From Patescibacteria group bacterium UBA4787 (GTDB lineage: Bacteria > Patescibacteriota > Patescibacteriia > UBA2591 > UBA4787), in contig DHGX01000003.1 of NCBI GenBank assembly GCA_002402995.1, positions 3,765 to 67,764 on the forward strand: 64,000 bases of DNA. Direction: 5' to 3'. This document shows, one piece after another, positions 5,301-59,858 of this stretch. Both the position numbers and the translations under genes were made by a program. The notes under the pieces are model-generated. The model worked only from the letters and a program-made list of their open reading frames with translations. It was not told the origin of the DNA and did no database searches. Within the stretch, counting starts at the first letter, position 1. Each line of letters begins with the position of its first letter.

Positions 5301-8300
5301 ATAATGTCCTTTTTAATGCACATCCTTCATATTTTGTTCTTGATCAAAACAATTATCCCAATTTAATTTTAAGCAACACGTCTTTCACCGCTTGGAACGG
5401 CACAGCGTGGGCTAACCTTATTAACGAAGCCAATACCAGCACAAATCTCGGCGATAATACGGTCACGGGTTTTTTAGTGGACAATGATGATAATCTTTTT
5501 GTTTTTAATTCTTCAAATGTAATCGCCACCTCATATCAAGGTGCTCCAGCCATAGTCGAGTATAACACCCCTGGGCACTATAACGCCAATTACACACCTA
5601 CCGGGCTTTCAACTGATTATACTTATGTGGTGGAAAGTGTTACCATGACCAGCTTAACAACCGATCTTCACGGCTTGGCTGCTTCAAGTTTAAGTTATCA
5701 GGTGCGTTGTTCCAATACAGGCGACTGGGAAACGGTTGCCTTGAACGAACAAAAGACTTTAATTTGCACAAACAATTTGTTTAACTACAAGGCCAATTTA
5801 AGCACCGCTGACCCAAACCAAACTCCAGAAATCAAAAACATCACCTGGCAAATCACCTATAGAGCTATTGACAACGAGGCTGCGGCTAACACGCTTTATG
5901 ACCATAACGACGTTTTGAGCAGTTCCACCACCTTTACTATTGATTCGGCCGCGGCGGTTTATGACGCCACGAACCAGAGGATTAAATTTAATCCTACGCC
6001 TTGGCGGGATTTAGTTAATGAAGCTTATGATCCTACTTATTTAAGCGCCACAGAAACTGGCTTTATGGATAACCCCCAGATCATCACTGACAGCAATAAC
6101 CGTTTGTGCGCAGTTTGGCGCGAAGGCGTTTTCAACAAAGGCGACATTTATTACTCCTGCTGGAGCGGCGCGGCTTGGGTGAAAGCAGACGGCACGACTG
6201 GTTATGATAACGTGAGCAACAATACCGGCGACTCTGATTTTCCTAGGCTGCTTTTGGACAACAATAATTATCCTTACGTGGTTTGGCAGGACAGCACCGA
6301 TAGTCATGCTTCGAGTACGGCCAATTACGACATTTTTTTTAAGTACTATGACGGTTCAACTTGGCGTGGTTTGAAAAACGCCGCGACCCATGACAATTTA
6401 TCGCAAAATCTCGGGCCTTCGTATTATCCGGAATTTGTTTTAGATAGCGTTAACCATTATCCGCAAGTTATCTGGCAGGACAGAAGCGAAGGCTTATGGA
6501 AAATTTATTACACCAAATGGAACGGCGTTGATTGGGTGAAAACCAACGGTGATTCTGGTTACGAGTCGCCCACAGGCCCAGTGATTTCATATCATGACAG
6601 TTTTGAGCGCAAACCGCCGATTCATCAATACGGCAAGATAAAGCTCAATAGCAATAACCAGCCGAATATTTTGTGGCAAGGATATTTTAACGAAGCCGGC
6701 GCCAGTCACACCAAGTCCCAAATATATTTTACCTATTACAATGGTTCAGCTTGGGCAGGCTTGGAAAACGCTTCTTCCACGCGCGATAATGTTAGTAATA
6801 CCACGAGCAGTGACTGGAACATGCAACCCAATCCTGATTTTGCCATTGACAGCAGCAACCGTGTTTACGCGGCTTGGATTGATAATTATCCTGATGTGTA
6901 TGGTGATGGATTTTATTTCAAATATTTTGATGGCAGCAATTGGGTGGGTTTGGCCAGCGCCACTTCCCAGCCGGATTGGATTTTTGATTTTATGCCTGAT
7001 CTTGCGAGCGGCAGTGACGACTACATTTATCATTACACCCAAGTAGAATTAGACAGTCAAAGCCGTCCTCACATCTTGGCTATGAAAACCACGGGTTGGT
7101 CTGTCAACAGAAATAATTGTTATACTTATTGGAACGGTTCGCAGTGGTCAAAAATTGACGGGGTAACAGGCGGTTATGATTCATTTGGCACCGGCGAACA
7201 AGCAGAATTTGTTTTAAAAGATGATTTTCCTTGGGTGATATATAAAACCGATCGAGCAGTTAAATTTGTGAAGGGTACGGCTTCTGGTTTTGAATCAGCG
7301 CAAGGGGTTTCACACCAAACGGTTAACCAAGCCTCAAGCGTTTACCCCGTGATTGCCAAAGCCGGTAACGGCGATATGTACGGAGCTTGGGTGGAGGGTA
7401 GGACCACCGGCCAAGGCAGCCGCTTGGCAATAAAAAAACATAGCGCTTCGTCCACAACCGAACAAACCGCCACGATTATTTCCACCGCAGCTAATTTAAC
7501 GTCATCGGGATACCGATATATCACCTCAGCCACTTTAACCGCCTCAGCCACGCTTAACAACGGAACCATCGTTTATTATTTATCCGCAGACAATGGCGCG
7601 CATTGGGAAGGCCCGATTACTTCCGAGGTGGAGCATATTTTTACCAATACTGGTCGAGTCTTAAAATGGAAAGCTGTTTTAACTGGCGATGGAGTTAATA
7701 AGCTGCCGGAAATTGACGCGATTACTGTGGCTTATAACATCAGCGATTATGCTTCCAGCGGTTATCTTATCTCTAAATTAGTTCAGCCCGCGGAGATCGG
7801 TTCATGGGACAGGGTTGTGGTTAGTCAAACTTTGAACGGCGGTACAGTCAGTTATCAGATTTTAGATAAAAATGGTAACTTAGTGCCTGACAGCGAACTC
7901 ACTGGCAACAGCGCGGGCTTAACTCCAATTGACAGTGAATTAAATATTGCTTCTATAAACGCTTCTAACACCAATTATTCTTCCTTATATATCAAGGCAA
8001 CCGTAAATTCGGCCAACTCAGTTTCTACTCCCACGATTACCAGCTTGAACGCTAAATGGATCAAAGCTAAGGCCGGTAACGATGTAGTTAGTAATGGCGC
8101 TGCTTCTTTTGACGCCACATCGTCAATTGGCGAAGTCTATACTTGCGCTTGGGATTTTGATTCATCGGACGGCGTTGATTGGAATAATCCTGATTCTAAC
8201 TCCTGTCAGGTCGACTATGACTATACCCCCAAAGGCGGCGGTTCTTACACGGCCACTTTAAGAATCAAGCAAGGAACTGCCACGGCTTATGATTATGACA

Positions 8301-10321: not shown

Positions 10322-10534
10322 TTCAAAGAATTTGGACAAAACTGTCTGAAACATTTTTATAAATCGCCGGAATTTTTATCGAAGGGAGATGTTTTGGTTT
10401 TGTCCAACGACTTCGTTTACAAGATAGGAGAAACGATTAAATAAATTGACAGGCGTTGCTCACAGTGATATTCTTAGGATAGATACGCGGAAATTTGACT
10501 ATTGAGTTTTCTATATTTTATAACAATTTCTGAT

Positions 10535-13500
10535 ATGAAAAATTTTGGCCAAAAAATTTCAAAGAATTCGAAATTTTTGTGGTTATTGTTTATAGCAATT
10601 ATATTATCGCCTAATTTTGTTTTGGCGGCTCCCGCGCAAGACAATTCGCGCGGAACTTTTTACGACGACTTTACGAATATCGGCGGCGTTGCCTTGAGCG
10701 CGAATACCGAAGTAGACGTCGCGCATAATTGGATCGGCTTAAAGCCAGACGAACAAGGTGATTATCCGCTTTCCAGCACTTTTGATTTCACTGAAGATTT
10801 TTCCACTAATAATTTTAAGGATACAACTGATTCAATAGACATTGATTGGAATATTAATAATCGGAAATTAAAACTTTTTAAAGAGAATGATTGGACAAAC
10901 CCCGTTTCTATACCAGAAACTTATTTAGGCGGATTGGGCGTTGATACTAATACCAACAAGTTGTACGCTGGCACGGCCGCTAATCGGGAAATTTACGAAT
11001 TACAAGACGCGAGTTTTCAAAAAATGACTGGTCCATGGAACGATGGATGGTTTTATTCTTTTTCATCGTATCAAAATAAATTATACGCCAGCGGAAATAA
11101 TGGAGATTGGAGTACGAGCGACGGGATTTATGTTTACGATGGTTCTTCTTGGTCAATTTCTTCCGGCTCGCCCACAGAAGGATCTGGCAATTCAGCTATG
11201 GCCATGGCTGTTTATGACAATAAACTTTATCTTGGAACGCGCAATGATTTTAATTACGCCAAAGTTTTTTCTTTTGATGGCGCTTCTTGGCAAGACACGA
11301 ATGTCACCAGCACTCAAATAGCGTTTATTTCTTTAGTGGTTTACAATAACAAACTTTACGCCGGTTCGTCTAACGACTCAGGTTGGACAAATCCCGAGGT
11401 CTTTGTTTATGATGGCAATGCATGGAATTTATCAACTCAATGTCCAGACGCTTCTAGTGGAGCGGCACACTTGGTCGTCCACGACAACAAGCTTTATGCG
11501 TCCTGTGAGAATCCGTCTTATGGCAGTCGAATGTTTGTTTACGACGGCGATACTTGGTCAGCAATGGCAAACATAGATTATCGCGTTTATCAATTAATTT
11601 CCTACGATAACAAACTTTACGCCGCTACTTCCAACGGACTTTACGTTTTTGACAATAATTCGTGGGACTTAGAATATCCCGGTTCTGTCGGGGCATTAGC
11701 GGTTTATAATAATCGGCTTTATCTCGGTCTCGGCAATACTGCTAATATTGTTTCTATTGGCACAAATTTTAGTTATTCATCTTCCGGCGTCGCGGTTTCT
11801 CTAAAAATTAATGGCAACGCGTCTGGCGTTCAGTCAGCCAAAATTAGCCCGACCCAGATTCTAAATGGTCAAACCATTAATTATCAAATGTCAGCTGATG
11901 GCGGCAGTCATTGGGAAAATGTTACCCCAGGTTTAGAGCATATTTTTATCCACCCGGGCGATGATTTAAGATGGAAAACGGTTTTAACCACTTCAAACAT
12001 TAGTGCTTCGCCAGAAATTACCAATTTAGAAATTCAATATCAGGCAACTGCTTCCTCGGTCACTTCAATTTCTATCACTCCTTCAGAAGTCGGCTCTTGG
12101 GATAAAATCATTTTTAATCATACTTTAAATGACCAGGCCATTACTTATCAGATTTTGGACTCTTCGGACGCTTTAATACCTGATTCAGTTTTGCCGGGTA
12201 ACGCCGCGGGTTTTTCCGCTAGCGGTACTTCTATGACGATTGATTTGTATGCGCTTCCAAGCGCGACTTATCCGTCCATTAAAATTAAAGCGAATTTGCT
12301 CGCCAGTTGCAATCTTTATACCCCAACCATCAATTCCTGGAAAACTTACTGGATTAAAGCCAAAGCTGGCGATGATATCGCGTCCGGAGGCTCCGCTTCT
12401 TTTGACGCCACTTCTTCTGTTGGTGATAGCTACACCTGTGCCTGGGATTTTGACGTTTCTGATGGCGTTGATTGGAACAATCCTGATTCCAATTCTTGCC
12501 AACCCATTTATGATTATCGTTCCAATAAAGGAGGCGGCATTTACACCGCCTCTCTTAGGATTAAACAAGGAACTGCCACGGCTTATGATTATGACACTAA
12601 GGTCGTCACGGTTAATTTAGGTAGTAGTAGTGACGAAGAAAGCCCTAAATATTTAAATTTCTCCGCTAACCGCCGTATTTTATTGGCTGATTCCCCGAAT
12701 CAGAGCATAATTAGCGCTCAAGTTTTAAACAAAAATAAAAAAGCTGTACTCGACGGGACTACGATTGTATGGAGTCTTCTTTGCCCGAATCTAACCACGG
12801 ACTTCAAAGATCTTGCCTGTGGAACATTATCTAACAATCAAAGTTTGACGGCAAATGGCGCGGTTTCTACAATTTTTACGCCGGGACAATTAGCTGGTTC
12901 AATAATAGTAAGGGGTTGCGCGATCAACGGTGTCTGCGCCGAACAAGCCATCAAGGTGGCTCTTAAGCAGCGCGGAAAAATAATTTTGAAATCTAATTAT
13001 TCTATTTTGCCGGCTGACGGAAAGTCCAGAATAAAAATTTACGTTAAGGTATATGACCGTTATTTGAATCCTTGGTCAAATGTTGTTATTTCTTTAAAAT
13101 TGATTAGTTTAGGCGCGGATCAAAAAGAAATCAAATTCACAGGTGAACTGTCGTCAACAGAGATAAAAACAGACAATAACGGCGAAGCGCTTGTCTATTA
13201 TTCGCCGGGCGAACAAATCGGAAAAATAAAAATTAAAGCTAATATAGAAAGCAATCAATCGTTGAGCGGGTTCAGGGTTTTGAATAAACTGGCTTATTTT
13301 TTAAAATACCTCACGCCTTCTTTTTTAAAATCAACCGCCAGCCATTTTTTTAATTTTGTAATGGCGGCCACGGCCCCAAAAATTTACGCCCCATATCCAA
13401 TTCAACCCGTGCCCATAATTGAGCCCCTTCCGCTTCCGGAAGAAGAAATTCCAGAAGAAGAAATTGTTTTGCCGCCAAATGACGAAGAAGTGGTCGGAGA

Positions 13501-14917
13501 ACTTGACCTTGATTTAGTTGATTCAGAATTAATGACCACGATTGTTGAAGATGAACCTCAGCCATTAGTTCAACCTCCAGATCCATCTGCTCCTACGCCA
13601 CTTTCCGAACAGTCAGGATCCCAAATAGGTGTTCCTAGTGAGAGTTATTCATCAGCGCCGCCGCCGTTACCGGTATATCTTCGCGCTCCAGTTTCGATTC
13701 CTTCAGCAGAAGCCGCGCCGACTATTATTGAAATTCATTATCCCGAGACAAAAGCGGCAGAGACGGCCAGTGATCCGTCTGGCTTTACGGAAATAATTGA
13801 GAAAACAACCGATTTGACACAAAACACAATAAGCGCGGCAACCGTGATCGTTAAAAAAATTCACACAAATCCGACGGTTCAAACTGTTAATCAAGTCGTA
13901 GCGCCAACAGTCTCGGCTGTAACCGTTGCGGCTGTGGCCGCTTCCGGCGCGGCTTCAAGCGCCACCGCCGTTCCTTTATTCAATATGGCTGTTCTTTTAT
14001 TCACCCAGCCTTCGTATCTTTTGACTCGGAGAAGGAAATCATGGGGCACGGTTTATGACTCCCTGTCCAAAGAACCAGTCTCTTTGGCTATAATTCGTCT
14101 TTATGAAATAATTTCGCAAGCTAATGAACAAAATAAAACTAAGAAACTTATCCAAACCCGAGTAACAAGCGCGGACGGACGTTATTTCTTTTTAGTCAAA
14201 CCATATACTAATTATCAAATTGAAGTTGTTTGTAATGGTTATAAATTCCCCAGCCATATTCTGAAAGCAGGCGTTCAAGAAACCATTTATACGGATGTCT
14301 ATTACGGCGAAGTTTTTAATTCTAACGATAATACTATAATTAATCCGAATTTGCCGCTTGATTCGCAGGAGGGGAAAGTTTCTTTGGTCGGTTTTAACAA
14401 AAAAATTAAAACTATTTTTGCCGATTTAGAGCAGTTTCTAAAAGCGCCAATTAATGCAAAAGAAAAAGAATACCGAAGAATCAAAAAAGAGGCCTTGACC
14501 AAAAAGGCGCTTAGGTTTCTTGCTTATCTCGCGCCTATTTTAGGCTTTATTAATTTATTAATTTCACCCAATAAATGGACATCATTATTATTCATTTTGC
14601 AGTTATTAATGCTTTTGGTTTTCCGGTATTTTATTGAGAAGATTTTGCCATATAAACAACATCTAGGGCGCGTTTTTGATATTGACACCAATAAGAATAT
14701 CGGACAATCTTTGATTTATCTTTTTGAGCCGCAATTCGGGAAATTAATTCAAACGCAAATTGCCGACAATGACGGACTCTACGGATTTTTAATCGGCAAT
14801 CAGAAGTATTATTTAGTCGCCGAAAAACCCGGCTATGTTTTTCCCCAAGACAAGATGGAAATTGTCGGTCAGGTCGAAGGCATAGCTAAAAAAGATTTAG
14901 GTATGAAAAAAATCTAG
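10535..14917 (+). CDS. Giant secreted surface protein 2 (paralog of giant 1). Signal peptide; Kelch-like beta-propeller repeats; FN3/PKD-like shared module; Big_1-like Ig domains; acidic/Pro-rich linker; same C-terminal TM + 2x CarboxypepD_reg-like anchor
   Basis: ATG at 10535 (MKNFGQ…; track ORF begins at an upstream TTG, 10502). Signal …LLFIAIILSPNFVLAAPA echoes giant 1. Repeats YDNKLYAGT…VYDG..W (x7). Shared PKD module. EPLPLPEEEIPEEEIVLPP linker. C-terminal module as in giant 1. Confidence 0.8.
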   Translation: MKNFGQKISKNSKFLWLLFIAIILSPNFVLAAPAQDNSRGTFYDDFTNIGGVALSANTEVDVAHNWIGLKPDEQGDYPLSSTFDFTEDFSTNNFKDTTDSIDIDWNINNRKLKLFKENDWTNPVSIPETYLGGLGVDTNTNKLYAGTAANREIYELQDASFQKMTGPWNDGWFYSFSSYQNKLYASGNNGDWSTSDGIYVYDGSSWSISSGSPTEGSGNSAMAMAVYDNKLYLGTRNDFNYAKVFSFDGASWQDTNVTSTQIAFISLVVYNNKLYAGSSNDSGWTNPEVFVYDGNAWNLSTQCPDASSGAAHLVVHDNKLYASCENPSYGSRMFVYDGDTWSAMANIDYRVYQLISYDNKLYAATSNGLYVFDNNSWDLEYPGSVGALAVYNNRLYLGLGNTANIVSIGTNFSYSSSGVAVSLKINGNASGVQSAKISPTQILNGQTINYQMSADGGSHWENVTPGLEHIFIHPGDDLRWKTVLTTSNISASPEITNLEIQYQATASSVTSISITPSEVGSWDKIIFNHTLNDQAITYQILDSSDALIPDSVLPGNAAGFSASGTSMTIDLYALPSATYPSIKIKANLLASCNLYTPTINSWKTYWIKAKAGDDIASGGSASFDATSSVGDSYTCAWDFDVSDGVDWNNPDSNSCQPIYDYRSNKGGGIYTASLRIKQGTATAYDYDTKVVTVNLGSSSDEESPKYLNFSANRRILLADSPNQSIISAQVLNKNKKAVLDGTTIVWSLLCPNLTTDFKDLACGTLSNNQSLTANGAVSTIFTPGQLAGSIIVRGCAINGVCAEQAIKVALKQRGKIILKSNYSILPADGKSRIKIYVKVYDRYLNPWSNVVISLKLISLGADQKEIKFTGELSSTEIKTDNNGEALVYYSPGEQIGKIKIKANIESNQSLSGFRVLNKLAYFLKYLTPSFLKSTASHFFNFVMAATAPKIYAPYPIQPVPIIEPLPLPEEEIPEEEIVLPPNDEEVVGELDLDLVDSELMTTIVEDEPQPLVQPPDPSAPTPLSEQSGSQIGVPSESYSSAPPPLPVYLRAPVSIPSAEAAPTIIEIHYPETKAAETASDPSGFTEIIEKTTDLTQNTISAATVIVKKIHTNPTVQTVNQVVAPTVSAVTVAAVAASGAASSATAVPLFNMAVLLFTQPSYLLTRRRKSWGTVYDSLSKEPVSLAIIRLYEIISQANEQNKTKKLIQTRVTSADGRYFFLVKPYTNYQIEVVCNGYKFPSHILKAGVQETIYTDVYYGEVFNSNDNTIINPNLPLDSQEGKVSLVGFNKKIKTIFADLEQFLKAPINAKEKEYRRIKKEALTKKALRFLAYLAPILGFINLLISPNKWTSLLFILQLLMLLVFRYFIEKILPYKQHLGRVFDIDTNKNIGQSLIYLFEPQFGKLIQTQIADNDGLYGFLIGNQKYYLVAEKPGYVFPQDKMEIVGQVEGIAKKDLGMKKI

Positions 14918-53712: not shown

Positions 53713-55215
53713 GTGCGTTTAGATGTGTTTTTATCGCAAAAATATTCTTTTTCCCGCCATCAAGCCCAAAAATTAATTGATAACGGCTTAGTCTTGGTTA
53801 ACGGCAAGATTATTACCAAGTCCAATTTTAATGCGGTGGAAAATGACAGGATTCAGATAGAAGAAAAAAAATCAATTGACATCGTTCCGAATTTTGCTAT
53901 AAATTTAGATGTTATTTTTGAGCACGAAGGTTTTTTGATAATTAATAAACAAGCTGGGATTTTAGTTCACCCTGTTAAATCCCGCGAAGCGGAAATTTTG
54001 CCAAAAGCGAAATTATCTAACAGGGTGAATCAGGTTTTCGCGAAAGACGCCGCCGACACCTTAGTAAGTGCTTTAATCGCGCGGTATCCAGAAATTAAAT
54101 CTATCGGAGGTGGTGACCGTCCTGGCATTGTTCATCGTTTAGATCAAGGAGTCTCCGGTTTAATGGTAATAGCCAGAAATCAAGAGTATTGTCAATATCT
54201 TTTGAAGATTTTCGCAGAGCACAAGGTTATTAAAAAATATTATGCCCTTATCTACGGACAACCTAAAGAAAAATCTGGTATTATTGATTTGGGCATTGGC
54301 CGAACCAAGCGAGGCAAAATCATAGCCACTCAATATGCGGAAAAAGTAAAAGATTATAAGACGGCAATTACTAAGTACAAGGTGATAAGAATCTTCAAAA
54401 AATACAGTTTTGTAGAAATCGAAACATTAACCGGTAGAACGAATCAGATTAGAGCGCACTTTAAAGCCATCGGTCATTCCCTGGTGGGCGACGAATTGTA
54501 CGGGAGCAGAAAGGACGGCCTAGGAAGAATTTTTTTGCACGCTTTTTATTTGAATTTTGTCGATTTGGATGGTATGACGCGCGAGTTTGTCTCTCCTTTA
54601 CCCGGAGAATTAGATATTTTTTTAAATAAATTAACAGGAGGTTCTTTTATGACGAAACTCTTTATACTCTCCGGTCTTTCGGGCGCGGGCAAGGACACCG
54701 TACTCGAGGGGCTGAAAAAAGATAATTTTGATTTTGATTGGGTTGTCACTACCACTACTCGATCGATGCGAGACGGTGAATCAGAAGGAAGGCCTTACCG
54801 TTTTGTTTCGCGCGGAGATTTTGAGAAAATGATTAAGAATAACGAACTTCTCGAGTGGGCGGATGTTTACGGTAATTATTATGGTTCGCAGACGAAAGAC
54901 GTCGAGGGCTTATTGAAAACTTCGGAAAAACCGATCATTTTTAAAACTGATTATCAAGGCGCGCGGACAATCAAGCAGAAATTTCCGGAAGCGCAAGTAA
55001 TTTTTTTGGTTCCGTCGTCTCTCGAGGACTTGGAGCGGAGGATAAGAAATAGAGGACAGAATTCAGAAGAGGATATCCAAAAGAGATTAGCAAAGACGAA
55101 AAAAGAGATGGGAACCCTGGATGAATGGGATCATGTCGTTATCAATCAAGATGGAATGATATCTGAAGCAGTGAATCGCGTAAAAGAAATAATTTTGAAA
55201 GAGTCTCGTTCGTAA
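53713..55215 (+). CDS. Fusion protein: RluD-type 23S rRNA pseudouridine synthase (S4 + RluA catalytic domain) fused to guanylate kinase
   Basis: S4 …GLVLVNGKIITKSN…; catalytic HRLDQGVSGLMVIA; then …LFILSGLSGAGKDTV…TTTRSMRDGESEGRPYRFVS… (Gmk P-loop and GMP-binding). Probable GTG start. Confidence 0.7.
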   Translation: MRLDVFLSQKYSFSRHQAQKLIDNGLVLVNGKIITKSNFNAVENDRIQIEEKKSIDIVPNFAINLDVIFEHEGFLIINKQAGILVHPVKSREAEILPKAKLSNRVNQVFAKDAADTLVSALIARYPEIKSIGGGDRPGIVHRLDQGVSGLMVIARNQEYCQYLLKIFAEHKVIKKYYALIYGQPKEKSGIIDLGIGRTKRGKIIATQYAEKVKDYKTAITKYKVIRIFKKYSFVEIETLTGRTNQIRAHFKAIGHSLVGDELYGSRKDGLGRIFLHAFYLNFVDLDGMTREFVSPLPGELDIFLNKLTGGSFMTKLFILSGLSGAGKDTVLEGLKKDNFDFDWVVTTTTRSMRDGESEGRPYRFVSRGDFEKMIKNNELLEWADVYGNYYGSQTKDVEGLLKTSEKPIIFKTDYQGARTIKQKFPEAQVIFLVPSSLEDLERRIRNRGQNSEEDIQKRLAKTKKEMGTLDEWDHVVINQDGMISEAVNRVKEIILKESRS

Positions 55216-55830: not shown

Positions 55831-55912
55831 GCGGACGTGGCGGAACTGGTATACGCGCATGCTTGAGGTGCATGTGCCGCAAGGCTTGAGAGTTCGAGTC
55901 TCTCCGTCCGCA
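55831..55912 (+). tRNA. tRNA-Leu (anticodon GAG), type II
   Basis: GCGGACG/…/CATGC-TTGAGGT-GCATG/variable arm TGCCGCAAGGC/GAGAG-TTCGAGT-CTCTC/CGTCCGC-A. Confidence 0.8.
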
Positions 55913-55938
55913 TTATTTCCGTTTGAACGGGCACGTAG

Positions 55939-55972
55939 CCCCTCACTTGAAGAAAATACCCCCAAGTGAGTG
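55939..55972 (+). repeat. Solo family-2 TIR hairpin (CCCCTCACTTGAAGAAAATACCCCCAAGTGAGTG) between tRNA-Leu and tRNA-Ile
   Basis: Left TIR intact, right TIR degenerate; no interior. Confidence 0.45.
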
Positions 55973-56034
55973 AAATATTTTTTATCGTACATTTAATTGT
56001 ATTAAAAAGTTTTTTTTGATCTTTTTTAGGTGAG

Positions 56035-56109
56035 GGGCACGTAGTTCAGTGGCAGAACGCATTCCTGATAAGAATGAGGTTGAAGGTTCGATTCCTTCCG
56101 TGCCCACCA
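56035..56109 (+). tRNA. tRNA-Ile (anticodon GAT), CCA encoded
   Basis: GGGCACG/GTTC…GAAC/CATTC-CTGATAA-GAATG/GAAGG-TTCGATT-CCTTC/CGTGCCC-ACCA. Confidence 0.85.
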
Positions 56110-56234
56110 GATTATAACTAATAACATAAAACGAATAACCCATAACCCAATTTTATTAAGTATTTGTTGGGTTGTTGTTATTAGTTATTAATTGTTGGTT
56201 ATTTGTTAGTTGTAAATTGTTTACGCAATTTTCG

Positions 56235-56311
56235 GGGCGCATAGCTCAGTTGGTTAGAGCGTTACATTGACATTGTAAAGGTCCGAGGTTCGAGTCCTCG
56301 TGCGCCCACCA
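56235..56311 (+). tRNA. tRNA-Val (anticodon GAC), CCA encoded
   Basis: GGGCGCA/AGCTC…GAGC/TTACA-TTGACAT-TGTAA/CGAGG-TTCGAGT-CCTCG/TGCGCCC-ACCA. Confidence 0.85.
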
Positions 56312-56326
56312 TTTCAAAATATATTA

Positions 56327-56358
56327 AATAAGAATCAGTCATATGACTGATTCTTATT
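56327..56358 (+). terminator. Perfect hairpin terminator after the tRNA cluster
   Basis: AATAAGAATCAGTCAtatGACTGATTCTTATT followed by TAT. Confidence 0.6.
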
Positions 56359-56575
56359 TATAATCGGCAGTAAGGACGATTGAAAATTTATTTTCGATTC
56401 GCCCGAGCGAATCAATCTCAGGCGCCTCACGCGCCGTGACAGCGCTTATACTTTTATACACTTGACAGAACCGAAAAAAAGCAGAAAATTATTATAGGTC
56501 AATATGTTTCTTTAACAATTCAATGAAAAAATAAACAACCAAATCCGCCGATAGGCGGAGAAAGGCAGGTGTCTC

Positions 56576-59500
56576 ATGACACGGAGGATCTTTCTGCTTG
56601 CTTTGCTGACCATCATGGTTATGTTAACTAGCGGCGCGTTTGCCAGAAACGCGATTACTTATCGGCCATTTGATTGGCAGAAAGTCAATCGTGGCAACTA
56701 TGAGGTCTGGTATCCTAAGGTTATGGAATACCAGATCCCGGCGACCCTGGCCATCATCGATAGCATTAATGAGTCTTACTCAACCCTGGTTTTCGGCAAA
56801 TATCGTGACCACATGGAATGGTATCAGAGAAAATACCATTCCAAACAGAAGAAGGCCGTGCCGGCTCCCAAACTTTTTACCGCTTCCAGCGATAAAGCCG
56901 AAGAGGTCAAAAAGACAGAGTCCGACAGCACCGATCTATTTTATCTATTCACGGATGGCAAGGGAAATCCGGACAGCCTGAAATTCGTCTACAACTGGAA
57001 GCCCAAAAAACTGGTTATTGTCCTGTATCCTTCAATGCAGGATTATACCCAAATCAAGGCTTTTCCTGGCGCTATCATACCGCCACAAGTTCTCGGCTTA
57101 ACCGAAACTAATCACTTTCGCGTCTTTGTCCCGTATACCGGAGAATGGCACGAATATGAGGCGGTTTTGGCGCACGAAATCGCGCACGCATGGATGTTGA
57201 ATTTCGTGCAAGAGAACCAGAAAAGGCGCGATCTCAAGACCCGTAACATAGTGCCGGTCTTCCACAATTATCCATTATGGTTTGTGGAGGGATGGGCCGA
57301 GCTTCTGAGCCGCGATTATTATTGCGGTAATAAACTCAGTCTTATCCACGCGAGCCTAGAGGATTATACCCGACAGGCCGTAGTGGATGGCCGGATTCCG
57401 CCACTTGAACAAATGGGCGGAGAGGTTTATCCGCTGGGCTATTCTTTCATGCGTTGGATGGTGGATCGTTTCGGGATTCACAAAATAAACGAGCTGATGT
57501 TGGTAACGCTTTTTTATAATCATTTTGAACCTTCCTGGGAGTACATCTTTAAGGAATCTCTTAGGGAGTCGGAAGTGAAATGGCGCGAATACTTGAAAGA
57601 GCGTTATTACAAGGATTTGTATGAACGGAGCGTCGCGGGAAAAATTTCCGTGGCCACTGATTTCAAGCAATCTCCTTTCGTCGGGTCGTTCAGTTACGAC
57701 CAGACCTCGAAGTTATTCGTCGGCTATGTGCCTGATTCTCGTCAAGGGGTGAGTATCGCCGTAGTCAATGGCAACGTGCCTGACACTAGCAAGAAGAAAT
57801 TTCTGATTCTGCATACCCAGTTCGACGATAAAACTCTTTGGTACAAATGGGCTAAACCTATCGTGAGGGGATTGCAGGTGGCATGGGTCGTCAATGTTAA
57901 TGGGGCTGATGAAATTCATCTGGCTCAGATCGACACAACCGACAAAAAGCTGAAGATCAGCCAAGAGCAGGTTCTGCGCTCAGAGCAAATTGTGGCAATC
58001 CAAAATATTTGTTTTGAGAACGACAATCTCGTGGTTTTCAGTGGAGTGGCGGTTGATGGAAAAACCGATCTGTATCGCGTCACGACCAAGGACGCTAAAT
58101 TCGAGCGTTTAACCGACGATCTTTACAATGATCGTTCGCCGGTTCCGTTCGACAAGGGCTACTTGTTCGTTTCCGATCGCCAGAGTCCCTATGGAGAGGG
58201 ATTGTATTACCTCGACATGGAGACATCGCAGATCATCAAGATATTCTTTGTTGATGGTGGATTCGTCGGTAATATTTGCGTTGACGCCGACCAGAAGTCA
58301 GTCGCTTTCCGGTTGATCTCTCAGTTCCATTCAGCACAAATTTTGGTCTGGAATAAGTCTTCAGGCGAATTTCGGGAGGTCTATCGGACATTCCGTGGCG
58401 CGGATTTCCTCGTCGGATTCAACGGCAAGAATCTACTGTTTACCGCTGAGGGCGTATTTAAAAACGATCAGCACAATAATTTAATTTTGCTGAATAGGAA
58501 ACTTCTTTCTTTGGATCTGGCAAAATTGGATTCTTGCGCAATCGTTCAGTACGAACCCAGTGAGATAGTGGAGGAAGGCTGGTCGCCGAAAGAAGTCGCA
58601 GACTTCAAGCCGGAAAAACCCGAGACTAAGCTTCAGTACAGCGGCGATGTGGTCGGTGCCAAGGGCGCGACTAACGCCACAGGTGAAAAAAGGATGGGGC
58701 TTGACGTCGGTTTCTTCGCTGCGGCTGGCACGCCAGTTTTCTACAACATTACGACCGTGTATCAGGATTTGTCTCAGCGTACGGAAAAAACGTATATTCT
58801 CCAAAGCTTCCAAGATTATTCTTGGAAATACAGTCCCGATCGTTCGAAGAATAATTTCATGCTTTGTCGTGACTGGAATCTTTGGCGTTTCGCCTACAAT
58901 GCCTACTATCCGCTCAACTTTGAAGATGGCCTGGGCTACGGTTATACCATAGGCCATGTTCGTCGGATTTACGAAAACAATGTCTATGTGGGGAGCGACA
59001 AACCAGACAAGGTCTGGACGCCGTTAACTGGTTTTCACGGGTACTTTCTGCACGATGGTGTTTTCGGACAATTTGGCGGGCCGCAGTGGGGTTCGGCAGT
59101 CGTAGGTTATGCTGACATCAACCTTACTAGCAGTGTTTTGGACGGCAAAATCGTAGTCGATGCCAGAAATTATTTGCCTTTAGGTCGGAGAACCAGAGTG
59201 TATCTGGCTAACCGCCTCTTCATGGCAAAATCCTTTGGCATGGATCGGAGCTTTTTCGAAGACTCCAATCCATTTGCTCAGAGGAAAGGCTACGAAGGTA
59301 GTCAATTTTCTACGCCGGGTGGTATCGGTACGGCAATAATCATTCATCAAACCGAATTGCGATTTCCGCTCGTCAACTGGGTTTTCTTCCAGCCGGCTTT
59401 TACGCCTCTAAAGGACAATCGGCGCGGAATATTCTGGTTCACGGTTGATGGGTCGCTTTTCGCTGAAGGCGGAGATGTATGGTTCAATGAGATTCGCAAA

Positions 59501-59665
59501 TTTGATTGGTCTGGCCGTGAAGGTTGGGCCATTAAGTTGCGAATTTTCGGAGCTTTTACAGTAAAATACGAACGATTCAAGTTTGTATATCGGCCACAGG
59601 ATCTGCGCAAGATCCGTTTGCGTGGCTACGACCAGCATCGTTGGTCGTTGGACATGGACTTCTAA
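56576..59665 (+). CDS. Compositionally foreign (~50% GC, rough estimate) 1029-aa secreted protein: HExxH zinc-peptidase-like region, beta-propeller-like middle, C-terminal beta-barrel-like domain ending in aromatic residue
   Basis: Signal peptide MTRRIFLLALLTIMVMLTSGAFA; HEIAHAW; C-terminal alternating-hydrophobic segments ending …RGYDQHRWSLDMDF. Own promoter (TTGACAgaaccg…TATTATA) and RBS. Confidence 0.7.
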   Translation: MTRRIFLLALLTIMVMLTSGAFARNAITYRPFDWQKVNRGNYEVWYPKVMEYQIPATLAIIDSINESYSTLVFGKYRDHMEWYQRKYHSKQKKAVPAPKLFTASSDKAEEVKKTESDSTDLFYLFTDGKGNPDSLKFVYNWKPKKLVIVLYPSMQDYTQIKAFPGAIIPPQVLGLTETNHFRVFVPYTGEWHEYEAVLAHEIAHAWMLNFVQENQKRRDLKTRNIVPVFHNYPLWFVEGWAELLSRDYYCGNKLSLIHASLEDYTRQAVVDGRIPPLEQMGGEVYPLGYSFMRWMVDRFGIHKINELMLVTLFYNHFEPSWEYIFKESLRESEVKWREYLKERYYKDLYERSVAGKISVATDFKQSPFVGSFSYDQTSKLFVGYVPDSRQGVSIAVVNGNVPDTSKKKFLILHTQFDDKTLWYKWAKPIVRGLQVAWVVNVNGADEIHLAQIDTTDKKLKISQEQVLRSEQIVAIQNICFENDNLVVFSGVAVDGKTDLYRVTTKDAKFERLTDDLYNDRSPVPFDKGYLFVSDRQSPYGEGLYYLDMETSQIIKIFFVDGGFVGNICVDADQKSVAFRLISQFHSAQILVWNKSSGEFREVYRTFRGADFLVGFNGKNLLFTAEGVFKNDQHNNLILLNRKLLSLDLAKLDSCAIVQYEPSEIVEEGWSPKEVADFKPEKPETKLQYSGDVVGAKGATNATGEKRMGLDVGFFAAAGTPVFYNITTVYQDLSQRTEKTYILQSFQDYSWKYSPDRSKNNFMLCRDWNLWRFAYNAYYPLNFEDGLGYGYTIGHVRRIYENNVYVGSDKPDKVWTPLTGFHGYFLHDGVFGQFGGPQWGSAVVGYADINLTSSVLDGKIVVDARNYLPLGRRTRVYLANRLFMAKSFGMDRSFFEDSNPFAQRKGYEGSQFSTPGGIGTAIIIHQTELRFPLVNWVFFQPAFTPLKDNRRGIFWFTVDGSLFAEGGDVWFNEIRKFDWSGREGWAIKLRIFGAFTVKYERFKFVYRPQDLRKIRLRGYDQHRWSLDMDF

Positions 59666-59685
59666 ATTGGAGGGTAATTATCAAT

Positions 59686-59724
59686 AAATCGCGGAAAATA
59701 AAAACATTTTCCGCGATTTTTTAA
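59686..59724 (+). terminator. Rho-independent terminator
   Basis: AATCGCGGAAAAtaaaaacaTTTTCCGCGATTTTTT. Confidence 0.65.
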
Positions 59725-59858
59725 TGATAAAAGATTTTTCAAAATACCTTCAATTTATGAATCTTAAGCACAGGTTAGAATTTCTACTATGGGGTTTGAC
59801 AAGCTTATTTTATAAGTTATCATTAAATTAGATGTATTTAATCGATTAATTTAAATTT

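What the first reader, a model, noticed from the sequence alone, without database searches (positions are those of the whole stretch)
56576..59665. Second compositionally foreign gene (~50% GC, rough estimate) next to the tRNA-Leu/Ile/Val cluster: HExxH peptidase + propeller + C-terminal beta-barrel-like domain ending in Phe
The C-terminal ~300 aa show alternating hydrophobic beta-strand patterning and a terminal aromatic (…SLDMDF) typical of outer-membrane beta-barrels (Omp85/autotransporter-like). This would be unexpected in a CPR-type, presumably monoderm, cell and argues for acquisition from a diderm donor. Insertion next to a tRNA cluster that also carries GIY-YIG element debris suggests an integration hotspot.
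Basis: partly seen in the sequence, partly recalled or inferred. Interest (0 to 1): 0.55.

Follow-up and report, generated by a model that had tools for sequence, protein, structure and literature searches.

The report
Omp85-type barrel protease in a CPR bacterium
A bacterium from a group thought to have no outer membrane carries an intact, conserved gene for a secreted protease fused to the kind of beta-barrel that normally sits only in outer membranes. The gene is an old resident of this bacterial group, not a recent import.

Summary
ORF 56576..59665 (+, 1029 aa) encodes a signal peptide, an HExxH zinc peptidase, a six-bladed TolB-like propeller and a C-terminal ~16-strand barrel ending in Phe. 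It lies just after tRNA-Leu/Ile/Val. Its GC is 47.5% against 39.8% for the window, and its GC3 is 0.55 against 0.37 (z = 7).

The barrel is Omp85/BamA-like:
- Profile-profile match to diderm barrels: 99.6%, E 2e-23.
- AlphaFold pLDDT 82.
- Foldseek top hits are all BamA.

The host is a Patescibacteria (CPR) genome.

The closest relatives (21-36% identity) form a rare, deep clade carried mostly by Patescibacteria-labelled genomes. That clade separates from the diderm "WD40-Omp85" family with 100/100 bootstrap. The tRNA-Ile/Val adjacency recurs in a relative only 35% identical, and YchF or thioredoxin neighbours recur in others. No integrase, att repeats or empty site was found. dN/dS is about 0.14 in every domain.

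Best reading: a long-resident, selected, barrel-anchored and propeller-gated envelope peptidase. Which lipid layer holds the barrel in a supposedly monoderm cell is unknown. So is the cause of the GC3 anomaly.

The parts
55831..56311 (+). tRNA-Leu(gag), tRNA-Ile(gat) and tRNA-Val(gac) cluster immediately upstream. This is context and is conserved with L001. tRNA-Ile and tRNA-Val are also directly upstream of the homologue in L003.
   Evidence: ARAGORN, Rfam, related loci, alignment with L001.
56325..56360 (.). Perfect 18+18 nt palindrome directly after tRNA-Val, conserved in L001. It probably ends the tRNA transcript.
   Evidence: Inverted repeat I3, terminator-like hit, alignment.
56453..56526 (+). 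Upstream block 100% identical to L001 while the flanking intergenic DNA has diverged. It contains a TTGACA promoter-like site at 56462..56489. Putative promoter or leader of the gene.
   Evidence: Alignment A6, promoter scan. The function is inferred.
56544..56559 (+). 5'-UTR hairpin TCCGCC-GATA-GGCGGA just before the GGAG/AAAGG ribosome-binding region. L001 keeps the stem through one compensatory pair (TCCGCT...AGCGGA).
   Evidence: The regulatory role is inferred.
56576..59665 (+). The gene: a 1029-aa exported peptidase-propeller-Omp85-barrel protein, coordinates including the stop codon.
   Evidence: dN/dS is 0.14 against the L001 orthologue. The DNA is 100% identical in three independent assemblies.
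56576..56644 (+). Sec-type signal peptide MTRRIFLLALLTIMVMLTSGAFA. The predicted cleavage lies before the conserved R-N. There is no lipobox Cys.
   Evidence: Sequence. The N-terminal pattern is conserved across the clade. No predictor was run, so the cleavage site is inferred.
56645..57625 (+). Gluzincin-like zinc-metallopeptidase domain (residues ~24-350). It carries a lineage-variable, low-confidence insert at about residues 75-140.
   Evidence: Sub-threshold hits to Peptidase_M9, SprT and flagellinolysin. Diderm relatives hit Peptidase_MA_2, M9 and BSP. Invariant columns are listed.
57173..57187 (+). HEIAH zinc-binding and catalytic motif (H200, E201, H204).
   Evidence: Invariant in alignments A2-A4. 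Present in 24 of 25 clade members and 118 of 118 diderm-type members.
57287..57301 (+). EGWAE (E238..E242), within the invariant PLWFxEGxAE block. Candidate third zinc ligand.
   Evidence: Invariant columns P233, W235, E238, G239, A241. E242 is invariant only in A2. The ligand role is inferred from the gluzincin pattern.
57638..58525 (+). Six-bladed TolB/PD40-like beta-propeller (residues ~355-650).
   Evidence: The NCBIfam TolB model scores only E 0.004, far below its cutoff. Clade profile against PDB: TolB 1e-4. Family profile: TolB 1e-29. Model pLDDT is 70-89 over residues 430-600 with 24-25 strands. Foldseek top hits are TolB.
58637..59662 (+). Omp85/BamA-fold beta-barrel of about 16 strands (residues ~688-1029). 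Motifs: ATGE 58676..58687; RKGY in the L6-equivalent loop 59282..59293; ELRFP 59354..59368; FAEGGD 59459..59476.
   Evidence: hhalign 99.6%, E 1.9e-23 with controls. AlphaFold pLDDT 81.8. Foldseek hits BamA. Hydrophobic register is shared with diderm barrels, r = 0.71. dN/dS is 0.15.
59633..59662 (+). C-terminal beta-signal-like strand QHRWSLDMDF, with alternating hydrophobic residues and a terminal Phe.
   Evidence: Of the 17 clade members longer than 900 aa, 16 end in F, Y or W and one (P0019) in I. 113 of 118 diderm-type members end in an aromatic residue.
59677..59728 (+). Hairpin (AAATCGCGGAAAAT / ATTTTCCGCGATTT) followed by a T-run. Probable intrinsic terminator of the gene. Homology with L001 ends at the stop codon and resumes at 59838.
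   Evidence: Inverted repeat I2, sequence, blastn against L001. The simple terminator scan did not list it.

Best explanation
The ORF is a real, intact, chromosomal gene of a Patescibacteria (CPR) bacterium. It encodes a Sec-exported three-domain envelope protein: an N-terminal gluzincin-type zinc peptidase (HEIAH plus a downstream Glu), a six-bladed TolB-like beta-propeller, and a C-terminal ~16-strand barrel of the Omp85/BamA fold that ends in a beta-signal-like strand.

It belongs to a rare, deeply diverged clade of the 'WD40-Omp85' family, which is otherwise found in diderm Bacteroidota, Ignavibacteria, Eisenbacteria and Aminicenantes. Members of this clade, where labelled, are mostly Patescibacteria.

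The family probably entered CPR once, long ago, from a diderm. It has since diversified inside CPR while staying in the same chromosomal neighbourhood (tRNA-Ile/Val, YchF, thioredoxin). The copy in this window is therefore not a recent island insertion from a diderm.

Proposed mechanism (inferred):
1. After Sec export the barrel folds into a lipid bilayer on its own, as BamA-family barrels can do in liposomes.
2. The barrel anchors the peptidase-propeller module outside the cytoplasmic membrane.
3. The propeller gates access to the zinc site, as in tricorn and S9-type peptidases, so that peptides or unfolded envelope or host proteins are trimmed. A plausible purpose is peptide scavenging by an auxotrophic cell.

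The loss of the L6 VRGY motif suggests the barrel serves as an anchor rather than as an insertase.
For: Architecture and family:
- Collinear full-length alignment with ~1020-1060-aa proteins that carry Peptidase_MA_2/M9, PD40 and Omp85 domains. PF01103 scores 36.6 bits against a cutoff of 24 in P0009.
- 1154 relatives in the exhaustive search, 31 of them at E <= 1e-30.
- The family profile hits TolB at 1e-29 and BamA at 1.5e-15 in PDB.

Barrel:
- A barrel profile built only from the Patescibacteria-type clade matches a diderm-only barrel profile at 99.6%, E 1.9e-23, over 307 columns.
- Controls: reversed columns give E 0.21. Block-shuffled columns give only a 45-column local match. The window protein plus its orthologue alone give E 2.5e-14.
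- AlphaFold pLDDT is 81.8. All top Foldseek hits are BamA, and Sam50 is also hit.
- Membrane character: the hydrophobic/polar register is shared with diderm barrels (13 of 15 strands, r = 0.71). A terminal aromatic residue is conserved.

Selection:
- dN/dS is 0.13 (peptidase), 0.12 (propeller) and 0.15 (barrel) against the 80%-identical orthologue. Neighbouring genes range from 0.05 to 0.17.

Host:
- Thioredoxin 90%-identity cluster with a Patescibacteria MAG. RNase Y, VanW, MurC and giant Ig-domain proteins occur in the window.

Clade:
- Members come from Patescibacteria and Jorgensenbacteria MAGs and from genomes AH-259-L05 and AH-259-L07.
- The split from the diderm set has 100/100 bootstrap. 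Mean distances are 1.79 within the clade, 1.66 among diderm sequences, and 3.04 between the two groups.

Residence:
- tRNA-Ile and tRNA-Val lie directly upstream in L003, at 35% protein identity.
- YchF is adjacent in L004, L006 and L010 and lies 2.2 kb away here. Thioredoxin is nearby in L005.
- The gene is identical in three assemblies and is at the same site in all 5 places shown (7 contigs read) that carry the identical thioredoxin.

Self-insertion precedent: PMC13018214.
Against: - Plain HMM methods do not see the barrel. Pfam Omp85 is absent from all 20 clade members. The clade profile finds no BamA in PDB. A diderm barrel HMM does not hit this protein at all.
- The L6 VRGY hallmark is present in only 2 of 17 clade members.
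- The barrel model was built on an alignment dominated by diderm sequences, and its coordinates could not be inspected.
- GC3 of 0.55 against 0.37 (z = 7) is not explained by long vertical residence.
- The target's dS (0.77) is the highest of 12 syntenic genes. A replacement of this copy by a foreign allele before the window/L001 split is therefore possible.
- The membrane that would hold the barrel is unknown, and the rest of the genome could not be searched for BAM or other outer-membrane genes.
- Some clade members carry non-CPR labels: two Gammaproteobacteria MAGs and one Aenigmarchaeota MAG.
- No biochemical data exist for any member of the family.
Confidence: 0.7

Rival explanations
1. 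First reader's reading. The gene was acquired recently from a diderm (Gram-negative) donor and inserted at a tRNA-associated integration hotspot.
For: GC3 outlier, z = 7. The gene lies 265 nt after a tRNA cluster. The 3' flank is variable: L001 has 2.95 kb with a HEAT-repeat gene exactly after the stop codon. An 18-nt, 83%-identical AT-rich direct repeat flanks the segment (D6).
Against: - The best diderm relatives are 20-23% identical, and the diderm barrel HMM does not even detect the protein.
- The Patescibacteria-type clade is separated from the diderm set at 100/100 bootstrap.
- The same tRNA-Ile/Val-to-gene arrangement occurs in L003 at 35% identity.
- No integrase, no tRNA 3'-end duplication and no empty site were found.
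- The D6 repeat is of a size expected by chance in AT-rich DNA.
Confidence: 0.05
2. The family is old in CPR, but this particular copy replaced the resident allele. It recombined in from another Patescibacteria lineage with higher GC, using the conserved tRNA genes and flanks, before the window and L001 lineages split. This would explain the codon anomaly at a conserved locus.
For: - GC3 is 0.55 in this gene against 0.37 in the genome, while GC1 and GC2 are ordinary.
- The L001 orthologue has the same overall GC excess: 47.5% against 37.1% for the rest of that locus.
- dS of the target is the highest of 12 syntenic genes.
- Homology with L001 breaks exactly at the stop codon.
- Clade members in higher-GC genomes exist: L008 is 49% GC.
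Against: - No candidate donor exists. The nearest non-orthologous relative among 15 billion proteins is 36% identical.
- dS is only modestly above that of the neighbours (0.77 against 0.18-0.64).
- Homologues are mildly GC3-enriched relative to their flanks in most other loci, which hints at a gene-intrinsic bias.
Confidence: 0.25
3. The gene is a vertical relic of a diderm ancestor of CPR. It would be a surviving piece of an ancestral outer-membrane proteome, not a transfer.
For: The clade is as internally diverse as the diderm set. Several models place a diderm ancestor at the base of Terrabacteria and CPR (bioRxiv 10.1101/2021.05.31.446380).
Against: Distribution in CPR is very sparse: about 25 clusters at 50% identity and 8 loci among the GTDB species representatives scanned. 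The diderm relatives recovered here are Bacteroidota, Ignavibacteria, Eisenbacteria and Aminicenantes, not diderm Terrabacteria. The taxon sampling of that scan was limited by the search patterns used.
Confidence: 0.08
4. The C-terminal domain no longer functions as a membrane barrel. It is a soluble or cell-wall-associated beta-domain, or a decaying remnant, and the protein is simply a secreted protease.
For: Loss of the L6 VRGY motif. No detection by Omp85 HMMs. No known outer membrane in CPR (PMC12102498).
Against: - dN/dS of the barrel is 0.15, the same as the catalytic domains.
- Hydrophobic positions coincide with those of diderm barrels.
- A terminal aromatic residue is kept in 16 of the 17 clade members longer than 900 aa; the other ends in Ile.
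- The model is confident and BamA-like.
Confidence: 0.1

Closest known systems
WD40-Omp85 subfamily of the Omp85/TpsB superfamily (Heinz & Lithgow 2014, PMC4104836). Here represented by ~1020-1060-aa proteins of Aminicenantes, Eisenbacteria, Ignavibacteriaceae and Bacteroidota (P0004-P0013, L009-L022).
   Same: Same length and collinear order: signal peptide, HExxH peptidase, TolB-like propeller, Omp85 barrel, terminal aromatic residue. No POTRA domain. Shared invariant motifs: HExxH, PLWFxEGxAE, E-x-R-F-P.
   Different: Only 20-23% identity. It forms a separate clade (100/100 bootstrap). The L6 VRGY motif is lost, and PD40 and Omp85 Pfam signatures fall below detection. The host is a Patescibacteria genome with no known outer membrane. 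Our searches of the held paper library found no experimental study of the diderm family.
BamA / TamA / Sam50 (Omp85 insertases)
   Same: 16-strand barrel fold (top Foldseek hits, TM 0.4-0.54), a C-terminal beta-signal-like strand, and an FxxGGD block at the position of the (F/G)xDxG motif.
   Different: No POTRA domains. The L6 VRGF/Y motif is not conserved. There is no evidence of insertase function. Sequence similarity is visible only through the diderm intermediates.
PlpD-type (type Vd) patatin-Omp85 fusions, as discussed in PMC4104836
   Same: An enzyme domain fused N-terminally to an Omp85 barrel, which raises the possibility that the barrel exports or anchors its own passenger.
   Different: PlpD has a POTRA domain and a lipase passenger. 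Here the N-terminal module is a zinc peptidase plus a propeller. The topology (surface-exposed or periplasm-like side) is untested.
TolB and propeller-gated peptidases (tricorn, S9 acylaminoacyl/DPP-IV peptidases)
   Same: Six-bladed PD40-type propeller next to a peptidase domain. TolB, tricorn and S9 structures are the top sequence or fold matches for residues ~355-650.
   Different: The catalytic domain is an HExxH metallopeptidase, not a serine peptidase. There is no Tol-Pal context.
Peptidase MA clan families Peptidase_MA_2 (PF13485), M9 collagenase, BSP, flagellinolysin
   Same: HExxH plus a downstream Glu. Weak HMM matches centred on the motif.
   Different: All matches are below the curated cutoffs for the window protein. 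It is not assignable to any curated peptidase family.

Membership tests
Omp85/TpsB superfamily | C-terminal 16-stranded beta-barrel of the BamA fold | tested here: met
   AlphaFold domain model has pLDDT 81.8 and about 16 strands. Foldseek top 50 hits are BamA or Sam50, E 3e-7 to 8e-6, TM 0.4-0.54. This rests on a model, and barrel closure could not be checked from coordinates.
Omp85/TpsB superfamily | Match to Pfam PF01103 (Omp85) at or above the gathering score | tested here: not met
   No hit in the window protein or in any of the 20 clade members. Met in the diderm relative P0009, 36.6 bits against 24. Homology to those barrels is shown only by profile-profile comparison.
Omp85/TpsB superfamily | Conserved L6 loop (V/I)RG(F/Y) motif | tested here: not met
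   [VILM]RG[YF] occurs in 2 of 17 full-length clade members against 89 of 118 diderm-type members. The window protein has RKGY at residues 903-906 in a low-confidence loop.
Omp85/TpsB superfamily | C-terminal beta-signal with a terminal aromatic residue | tested here: met
   The protein ends ...WSLDMDF. Of the 17 clade members longer than 900 aa, 16 end in F, Y or W and one (P0019) in I.
Omp85/TpsB superfamily | N-terminal POTRA domain(s) | tested here: not met
   No POTRA hit in Pfam or NCBIfam. The N-terminal region is a peptidase plus a propeller, as in the WD40-Omp85 subfamily.
Omp85/TpsB superfamily | Residence in an outer membrane of a diderm cell | not testable with these tools
   The host is Patescibacteria, which is regarded as lacking an outer membrane (PMC12102498). 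The hydrophobic register is retained. Localisation needs experiments.
WD40-Omp85 subfamily | TolB-like beta-propeller N-terminal to the barrel | tested here: met
WD40-Omp85 subfamily | Full-length collinear homology to recognised members | tested here: met
   The profile search recovers P0004-P0013. Alignment A2 has invariant columns in all three domains. Barrel hhalign gives 99.6%. The window protein nevertheless sits in a separate clade.
Gluzincin zinc-metallopeptidases (clan MA) | HExxH plus a downstream Glu ligand, conserved in the family | tested here: met
   HEIAH at 200-204. E238 is invariant in A2-A4 and E242 in A2. The ligand assignment is inferred, not shown.
Gluzincin zinc-metallopeptidases (clan MA) | Match to a curated peptidase family model above its cutoff | tested here: not met
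   Peptidase_M9 scores 14.1 bits against 26. Flagellinolysin scores 25.7 against 205.
tRNA-associated genomic island | Integrase or recombinase, flanking att repeats derived from the tRNA 3' end, and an empty site in relatives | tested here: not met
   No such ORF. Only a short AT-rich 15/18 repeat. The gene is present at the same site in L001 and in every assembly of this strain, and lies next to tRNA-Ile/Val in L003.
tRNA-associated genomic island | Deviant base composition | tested here: met
   GC 47.5% against 39.8%. GC3 z = 7.

The most novel reading that the evidence does not exclude
Some Patescibacteria make and maintain a functional Omp85-type membrane barrel. No other Omp85-like ORF was found in this 64-kb window, and the rest of the genome could not be searched for BAM or other outer-membrane genes. 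That implies one of two things. Either these cells have an unrecognised outer lipid layer or lipid patches, as in a toga-like envelope. Or, as episymbionts, they insert the barrel into the outer membrane of their host to tether a propeller-gated protease at the cell-cell interface. In both cases an Omp85 barrel would work outside the classical diderm setting and would be self-inserting.
Probability: 0.25. Interest if true: 0.85.

Novelty: new variant of a known kind. Interest (0 to 1): 0.6.

Why it matters
BamA-family barrels are used as a genomic proxy for a second membrane (PMC10160955). CPR/Patescibacteria are treated as monoderm in current models of envelope evolution (bioRxiv 10.1101/2021.05.31.446380; PMC12102498).

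This finding is a Patescibacteria-type clade of Omp85-fold barrels, kept under purifying selection and fused to a protease. It gives a concrete, clonable protein with which to ask three questions:
- Do some CPR have an outer lipid layer?
- Can Omp85 barrels assemble without BAM?
- Do episymbionts plant beta-barrels in host membranes?

It also shows that standard HMM annotation misses such barrels entirely. Every member for which a source name was retrieved is called a 'hypothetical protein'. Surveys of outer-membrane markers in CPR may therefore undercount them.

The full-text searches found no paper reporting Omp85-type proteins in Patescibacteria. That library is incomplete.

Tried and rejected
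- Direct Pfam, NCBIfam and PDB sequence searches of the protein gave only sub-threshold peptidase and TolB hints and nothing for the barrel.
- A diderm barrel HMM against all window ORFs gave no hit, not even to the target. No second Omp85-like ORF was found in the window.
- The full-length AlphaFold run with 13 sequences was poor: pLDDT 51, barrel below 50. It was replaced by a domain model with 110 sequences.
- The GTDB scan with the 20-sequence alignment failed for lack of a conserved stretch and was repeated with 11 sequences.
- The third word-indexed homologue search returned no new clade members.
- Simple Kyte-Doolittle face analysis of the strands did not separate the barrel from the propeller. 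It was replaced by a column-wise comparison with diderm barrels.
- The search for att-like repeats and tRNA 3'-end duplications found only chance-sized AT-rich repeats.
- The search for GIY-YIG remnants between the tRNAs found none.
- High expression as the cause of high GC3 was rejected, because L19 and thioredoxin have ordinary GC3.
- The other GC-rich ORF (42767..44785) as a functional partner was rejected. It looks like a cytoplasmic HTH/phosphoesterase-like protein.
- Neighbouring genes as a functional operon were rejected. The neighbours (YchF, SecA, Trx, ClpP) are housekeeping genes and differ between subclades.

Full report
**1. Observation**

- It contains one HExxH motif, HEIAH, at residues 200-204.
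- It lies 265 nt downstream of tRNA-Leu(gag), tRNA-Ile(gat) and tRNA-Val(gac) at 55831..56311.
- The deviation sits at third codon positions. GC3 is 0.548 against a mean of 0.372 (sd 0.025) in 30 other ORFs of at least 200 aa, so z = 7. It is uniform along the gene. GC1 and GC2 are ordinary.
- The only other outlier is ORF 42767..44785.
- I found no GIY-YIG-like ORF or fragment in or beside the tRNA cluster.

**2. Anatomy**

- **Signal peptide, residues 1-23.** MTRRIFLLALLTIMVMLTSGAFA is a classic Sec signal peptide with no lipobox. The following R-N-x-I-x-Y-R-P-F-D-W block is conserved in relatives.
- **Peptidase, residues ~24-350.** This is a helical HExxH domain. H200, E201, H204 and the P233-L-W-F-x-E238-G-x-A block are invariant across the alignments, and E242 is invariant in A2. 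The pattern is that of a gluzincin. Curated models match only below their cutoffs: M9, SprT, and flagellinolysin at 7e-6.
- **Propeller, residues ~355-650.** The model shows 24-25 strands, i.e. six blades, with pLDDT 70-89 over residues 430-600. The best fold matches are TolB structures. The clade profile hits TolB in PDB at 1e-4.
- **Barrel, residues ~688-1029.** Details follow in section 4.
- **Flanking signals.** A hairpin followed by a T-run lies after the stop codon at 59677..59728. Upstream, a 74-nt block (56453..56526) containing a TTGACA promoter-like site is 100% identical to the relative L001. A 5'-UTR hairpin at 56544..56559 keeps its stem in L001 through one compensatory pair.

**3. 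Relatives**

The word-indexed search found only an identical protein, an 80% orthologue (P0002), and a 23%-identical full-length protein from a Candidatus Jorgensenbacteria MAG.

A profile search then found ~1020-1060-aa proteins from Aminicenantes and unnamed metagenomes. They carry Peptidase_MA_2/M9, PD40 repeats and, in P0009, Pfam Omp85 above threshold at 36.6 bits against 24.

The exhaustive search of 1.84 billion representatives gave 1154 hits: 599 at E <= 1e-10 and 31 at E <= 1e-30.

- About 22 clusters (P0014-P0035) match the profile strongly (E 1e-41 to 1e-210). Of these, 17 are longer than 900 aa and match over most of the profile.
- The rest are ~900-1100-aa proteins that match mainly over the peptidase and propeller.

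Named members of the close group are 'Patescibacteria group bacterium' MAGs.

A scan of GTDB species representatives returned two sets of loci:

- Eight close loci. These come from Patescibacteria (including AH-259-L05 and AH-259-L07), an unclassified 'bacterium', a MAG labelled Saccharibacteria, and two MAGs labelled Gammaproteobacteria.
- Twelve distant loci. Most come from Eisenbacteria, Ignavibacteriaceae, Bacteroidota and Aminicenantes; one (L017) is labelled Saccharimonadales.

One partial member is labelled Aenigmarchaeota, and one lies on an 876-kb contig.

A neighbour-joining tree of 72 sequences and 868 columns separates the 23 close-group sequences from the 49 diderm-type sequences in 100 of 100 bootstraps. 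Mean distances are 1.79 within the close group, 1.66 within the diderm group and 3.04 between them.

The diderm group corresponds to the 'WD40-Omp85' subfamily described by Heinz and Lithgow (PMC4104836).

**4. Is the C-terminal domain an Omp85 barrel?**

Ordinary HMM methods say nothing.

- Pfam Omp85 hits none of 20 clade members.
- The clade profile finds no BamA in PDB.
- A diderm barrel HMM does not score the window protein.

More sensitive methods agree with each other.

- **Profile-profile comparison.** A barrel profile built only from the Patescibacteria-type clade aligns with a diderm-only barrel profile at 99.6% probability, E 1.9e-23, over 307 columns.
  - With reversed columns the result falls to E 0.21.
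  - With block-shuffled columns only a 45-column local match remains.
  - The window protein plus its orthologue alone give E 2.5e-14.
- **Family profile.** The combined profile hits BamA barrels in PDB at 1.5e-15.
- **Structure model.** An AlphaFold model of residues 651-1029 with 110 aligned sequences has pLDDT 81.8, pTM 0.76 and about 16 strands, with a long loop at the L6 position.
- **Fold search.** The top 50 Foldseek matches in PDB are BamA barrels, with one Sam50. E-values run from 3e-7 to 8e-6 and TM-scores from 0.4 to 0.54.
- **Hydrophobic register.** At the strand columns, the clade keeps the same alternating register as the diderm barrels. Mean hydrophobicity is 0.13 (out) and -0.74, against 0.29 and -0.70 in the diderm group. 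Parity agrees in 13 of 15 strands, and per-column r = 0.71 over 167 columns.
- **C-terminus.** Of the 17 clade members longer than 900 aa, 16 end in F, Y or W and one in I.

What is lost is the L6 VRGY motif, present in 2 of 17 clade members against 89 of 118 diderm-type members. ELRFP and FxxGGD are kept.

**5. Host**

- The window's thioredoxin falls in a 90%-identity cluster with a thioredoxin from a 'Patescibacteria group bacterium' MAG.
- Its YchF is 54-56% identical to those of Patescibacteria loci.
- The window also carries RNase Y, VanW, MurC and giant Ig-domain proteins.
- CPR are regarded as lacking an outer membrane (PMC12102498; bioRxiv 10.1101/2021.05.31.446380).
- BamA-family barrels are used as a proxy for a second membrane (PMC10160955).

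**6. History of the locus**

- The 80% orthologue in L001 sits in the same place: RluD, Gmk, L19, the three tRNAs, the gene, then Trx, TrxR, YchF and PHP.
- All 5 places shown (7 contigs read) that encode the identical thioredoxin carry the gene at the same site. In three of those assemblies its DNA is 100% identical to the window.
- L003, whose protein is only 35% identical, has tRNA-Ile(gat) and tRNA-Val(gac) directly upstream of its copy.
- L004, L006 and L010 (25-29% identity) have YchF immediately upstream, and L005 has thioredoxin about 2 kb away. In the window, Trx, TrxR and YchF lie 0.9-2.2 kb downstream.
- Divergence of the protein rises with divergence of YchF across these genomes, apart from one pair, L006/L010.
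- Against L001, dN/dS is 0.14 overall: 0.13 for the peptidase, 0.12 for the propeller and 0.15 for the barrel. Eleven neighbouring genes range from 0.05 to 0.17.
- There is no integrase and no duplicated tRNA end. Only a 15/18 AT-rich repeat flanks the segment.

Together this argues for long residence in one chromosomal neighbourhood of a Patescibacteria clade, not a recent insertion.

The GC3 anomaly remains unexplained.

- The L001 copy shares the overall GC excess: 47.5% against 37.1% for the rest of that locus.
- It is not an expression effect, because L19 and Trx have ordinary GC3.
- Homologues are only mildly GC3-enriched in most other loci.
- The target's dS (0.77) is the highest of the 12 syntenic genes, which range from 0.18 to 0.64.
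- Homology with L001 stops exactly at the stop codon. L001 then has 2.95 kb with a HEAT-repeat gene.

An allelic replacement from an unsampled Patescibacteria lineage of higher GC, before the window/L001 split, is a reasonable but untested explanation.

**7. Mechanism**

Shown:
- The reading frame is intact.
- A signal-peptide-like N-terminus is present.
- The zinc-binding motif is conserved.
- The fold models are TolB-like and BamA-like.
- Purifying selection acts on all domains.
- Hydrophobic barrel positions are retained.

Inferred:
- The protein is exported by Sec.
- The barrel folds into a bilayer without BAM. BamA and SonA fold spontaneously into liposomes (PMC13018214).
- The barrel anchors a propeller-gated zinc peptidase outside the cytoplasmic membrane. 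By analogy with tricorn and S9 peptidases, the propeller restricts access to peptides or unfolded chains.
- Loss of VRGY suggests an anchor role rather than an insertase role.
- Which lipid layer receives the barrel cannot be decided here. The candidates are a cryptic outer layer, lipid patches, vesicles, or a host outer membrane.

**8. Verdict**

The architecture and its oddity in CPR are right. The claims of recent acquisition from a diderm and of an integration hotspot are not.

The protein is a new variant of a known kind: a Patescibacteria-type clade of the uncharacterised WD40-Omp85 family that current annotation does not detect. Full-text searches found no report of Omp85-type proteins in Patescibacteria.

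**9. Caveats**

- The barrel model relies on an alignment dominated by diderm sequences, and its coordinates could not be inspected.
- The tree is neighbour-joining only.
- A few clade members carry non-CPR labels.
- The rest of the genome could not be screened for other outer-membrane genes.

Noticed in passing
window 42767-44785 (+): The other compositional outlier in the window: a 672-aa ORF with GC 53.9% and GC3 0.69. It has no Pfam family at 1e-4. Weak NCBIfam hints point to a BirA-like HTH at the N-terminus and to the DNA polymerase II small subunit (phosphoesterase-like). It looks cytoplasmic and unrelated to the barrel protein.
   Followed up: partly
window 55913-56034 and 56110-56234: Two ~110-nt insertions between tRNA-Leu/Ile and tRNA-Ile/Val are absent from the relative L001, where the tRNAs are 13 nt apart. 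Each carries inverted repeats. The first begins with a copy of the first 10 nt of tRNA-Ile (GGGCACGTAG), which is reminiscent of a miniature mobile element.
   Followed up: partly
window 56453-56559: A 74-nt upstream block is 100% identical to L001 amid diverged intergenic DNA. A 6-bp 5'-UTR hairpin keeps its stem in L001 through one compensatory change (TCCGCC/GGCGGA against TCCGCT/AGCGGA). This may be a leader or regulatory element. There is no Rfam match.
   Followed up: partly
window 59666-59837 vs L001 13094-16045: Homology with L001 stops exactly at the stop codon of the gene and resumes 172 nt later. L001 has 2.95 kb there, carrying an 860-aa HEAT-repeat gene on the opposite strand. This is an indel hotspot at the 3' flank.
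   Followed up: partly
window 53713-55215 (+): RluD-type pseudouridine synthase and guanylate kinase are read as one 500-aa ORF here and in the same-strain assembly L023. They are two separate genes (296 and 188 aa) in L001.
   Followed up: no
window 2396-10321 and 10502-14917 (+): Two giant ORFs of 2641 and 1471 aa with Big_2, Big_1 and CarboxypepD_reg-like domains. They are likely surface proteins, and the first is somewhat GC-enriched (44%).
   Followed up: no
L007 5153-8017 (-): The phenylalanyl-tRNA synthetase beta chain next to a clade member carries an inserted NlpC/P60 peptidase domain (residues ~470-576).
   Followed up: no
P0033; L005 and L007; P0026: Clade members carry odd taxonomic labels. 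P0033 is annotated as Candidatus Aenigmarchaeota. L005 and L007 are annotated as uncultured Gammaproteobacteria. These may reflect mis-binning or mislabelling. P0026 lies on an 876,493-nt NCBI contig, which may be a near-complete small genome suitable for a whole-genome outer-membrane gene survey.
   Followed up: no
L002 2070-4571 and L008 5220-7715 (-): In the second subclade (Jorgensenbacteria and a related MAG) the homologue is divergently adjacent to secA. In the first subclade it follows ychF. Whether the secA adjacency is functional or only lineage synteny is unknown.
   Followed up: partly
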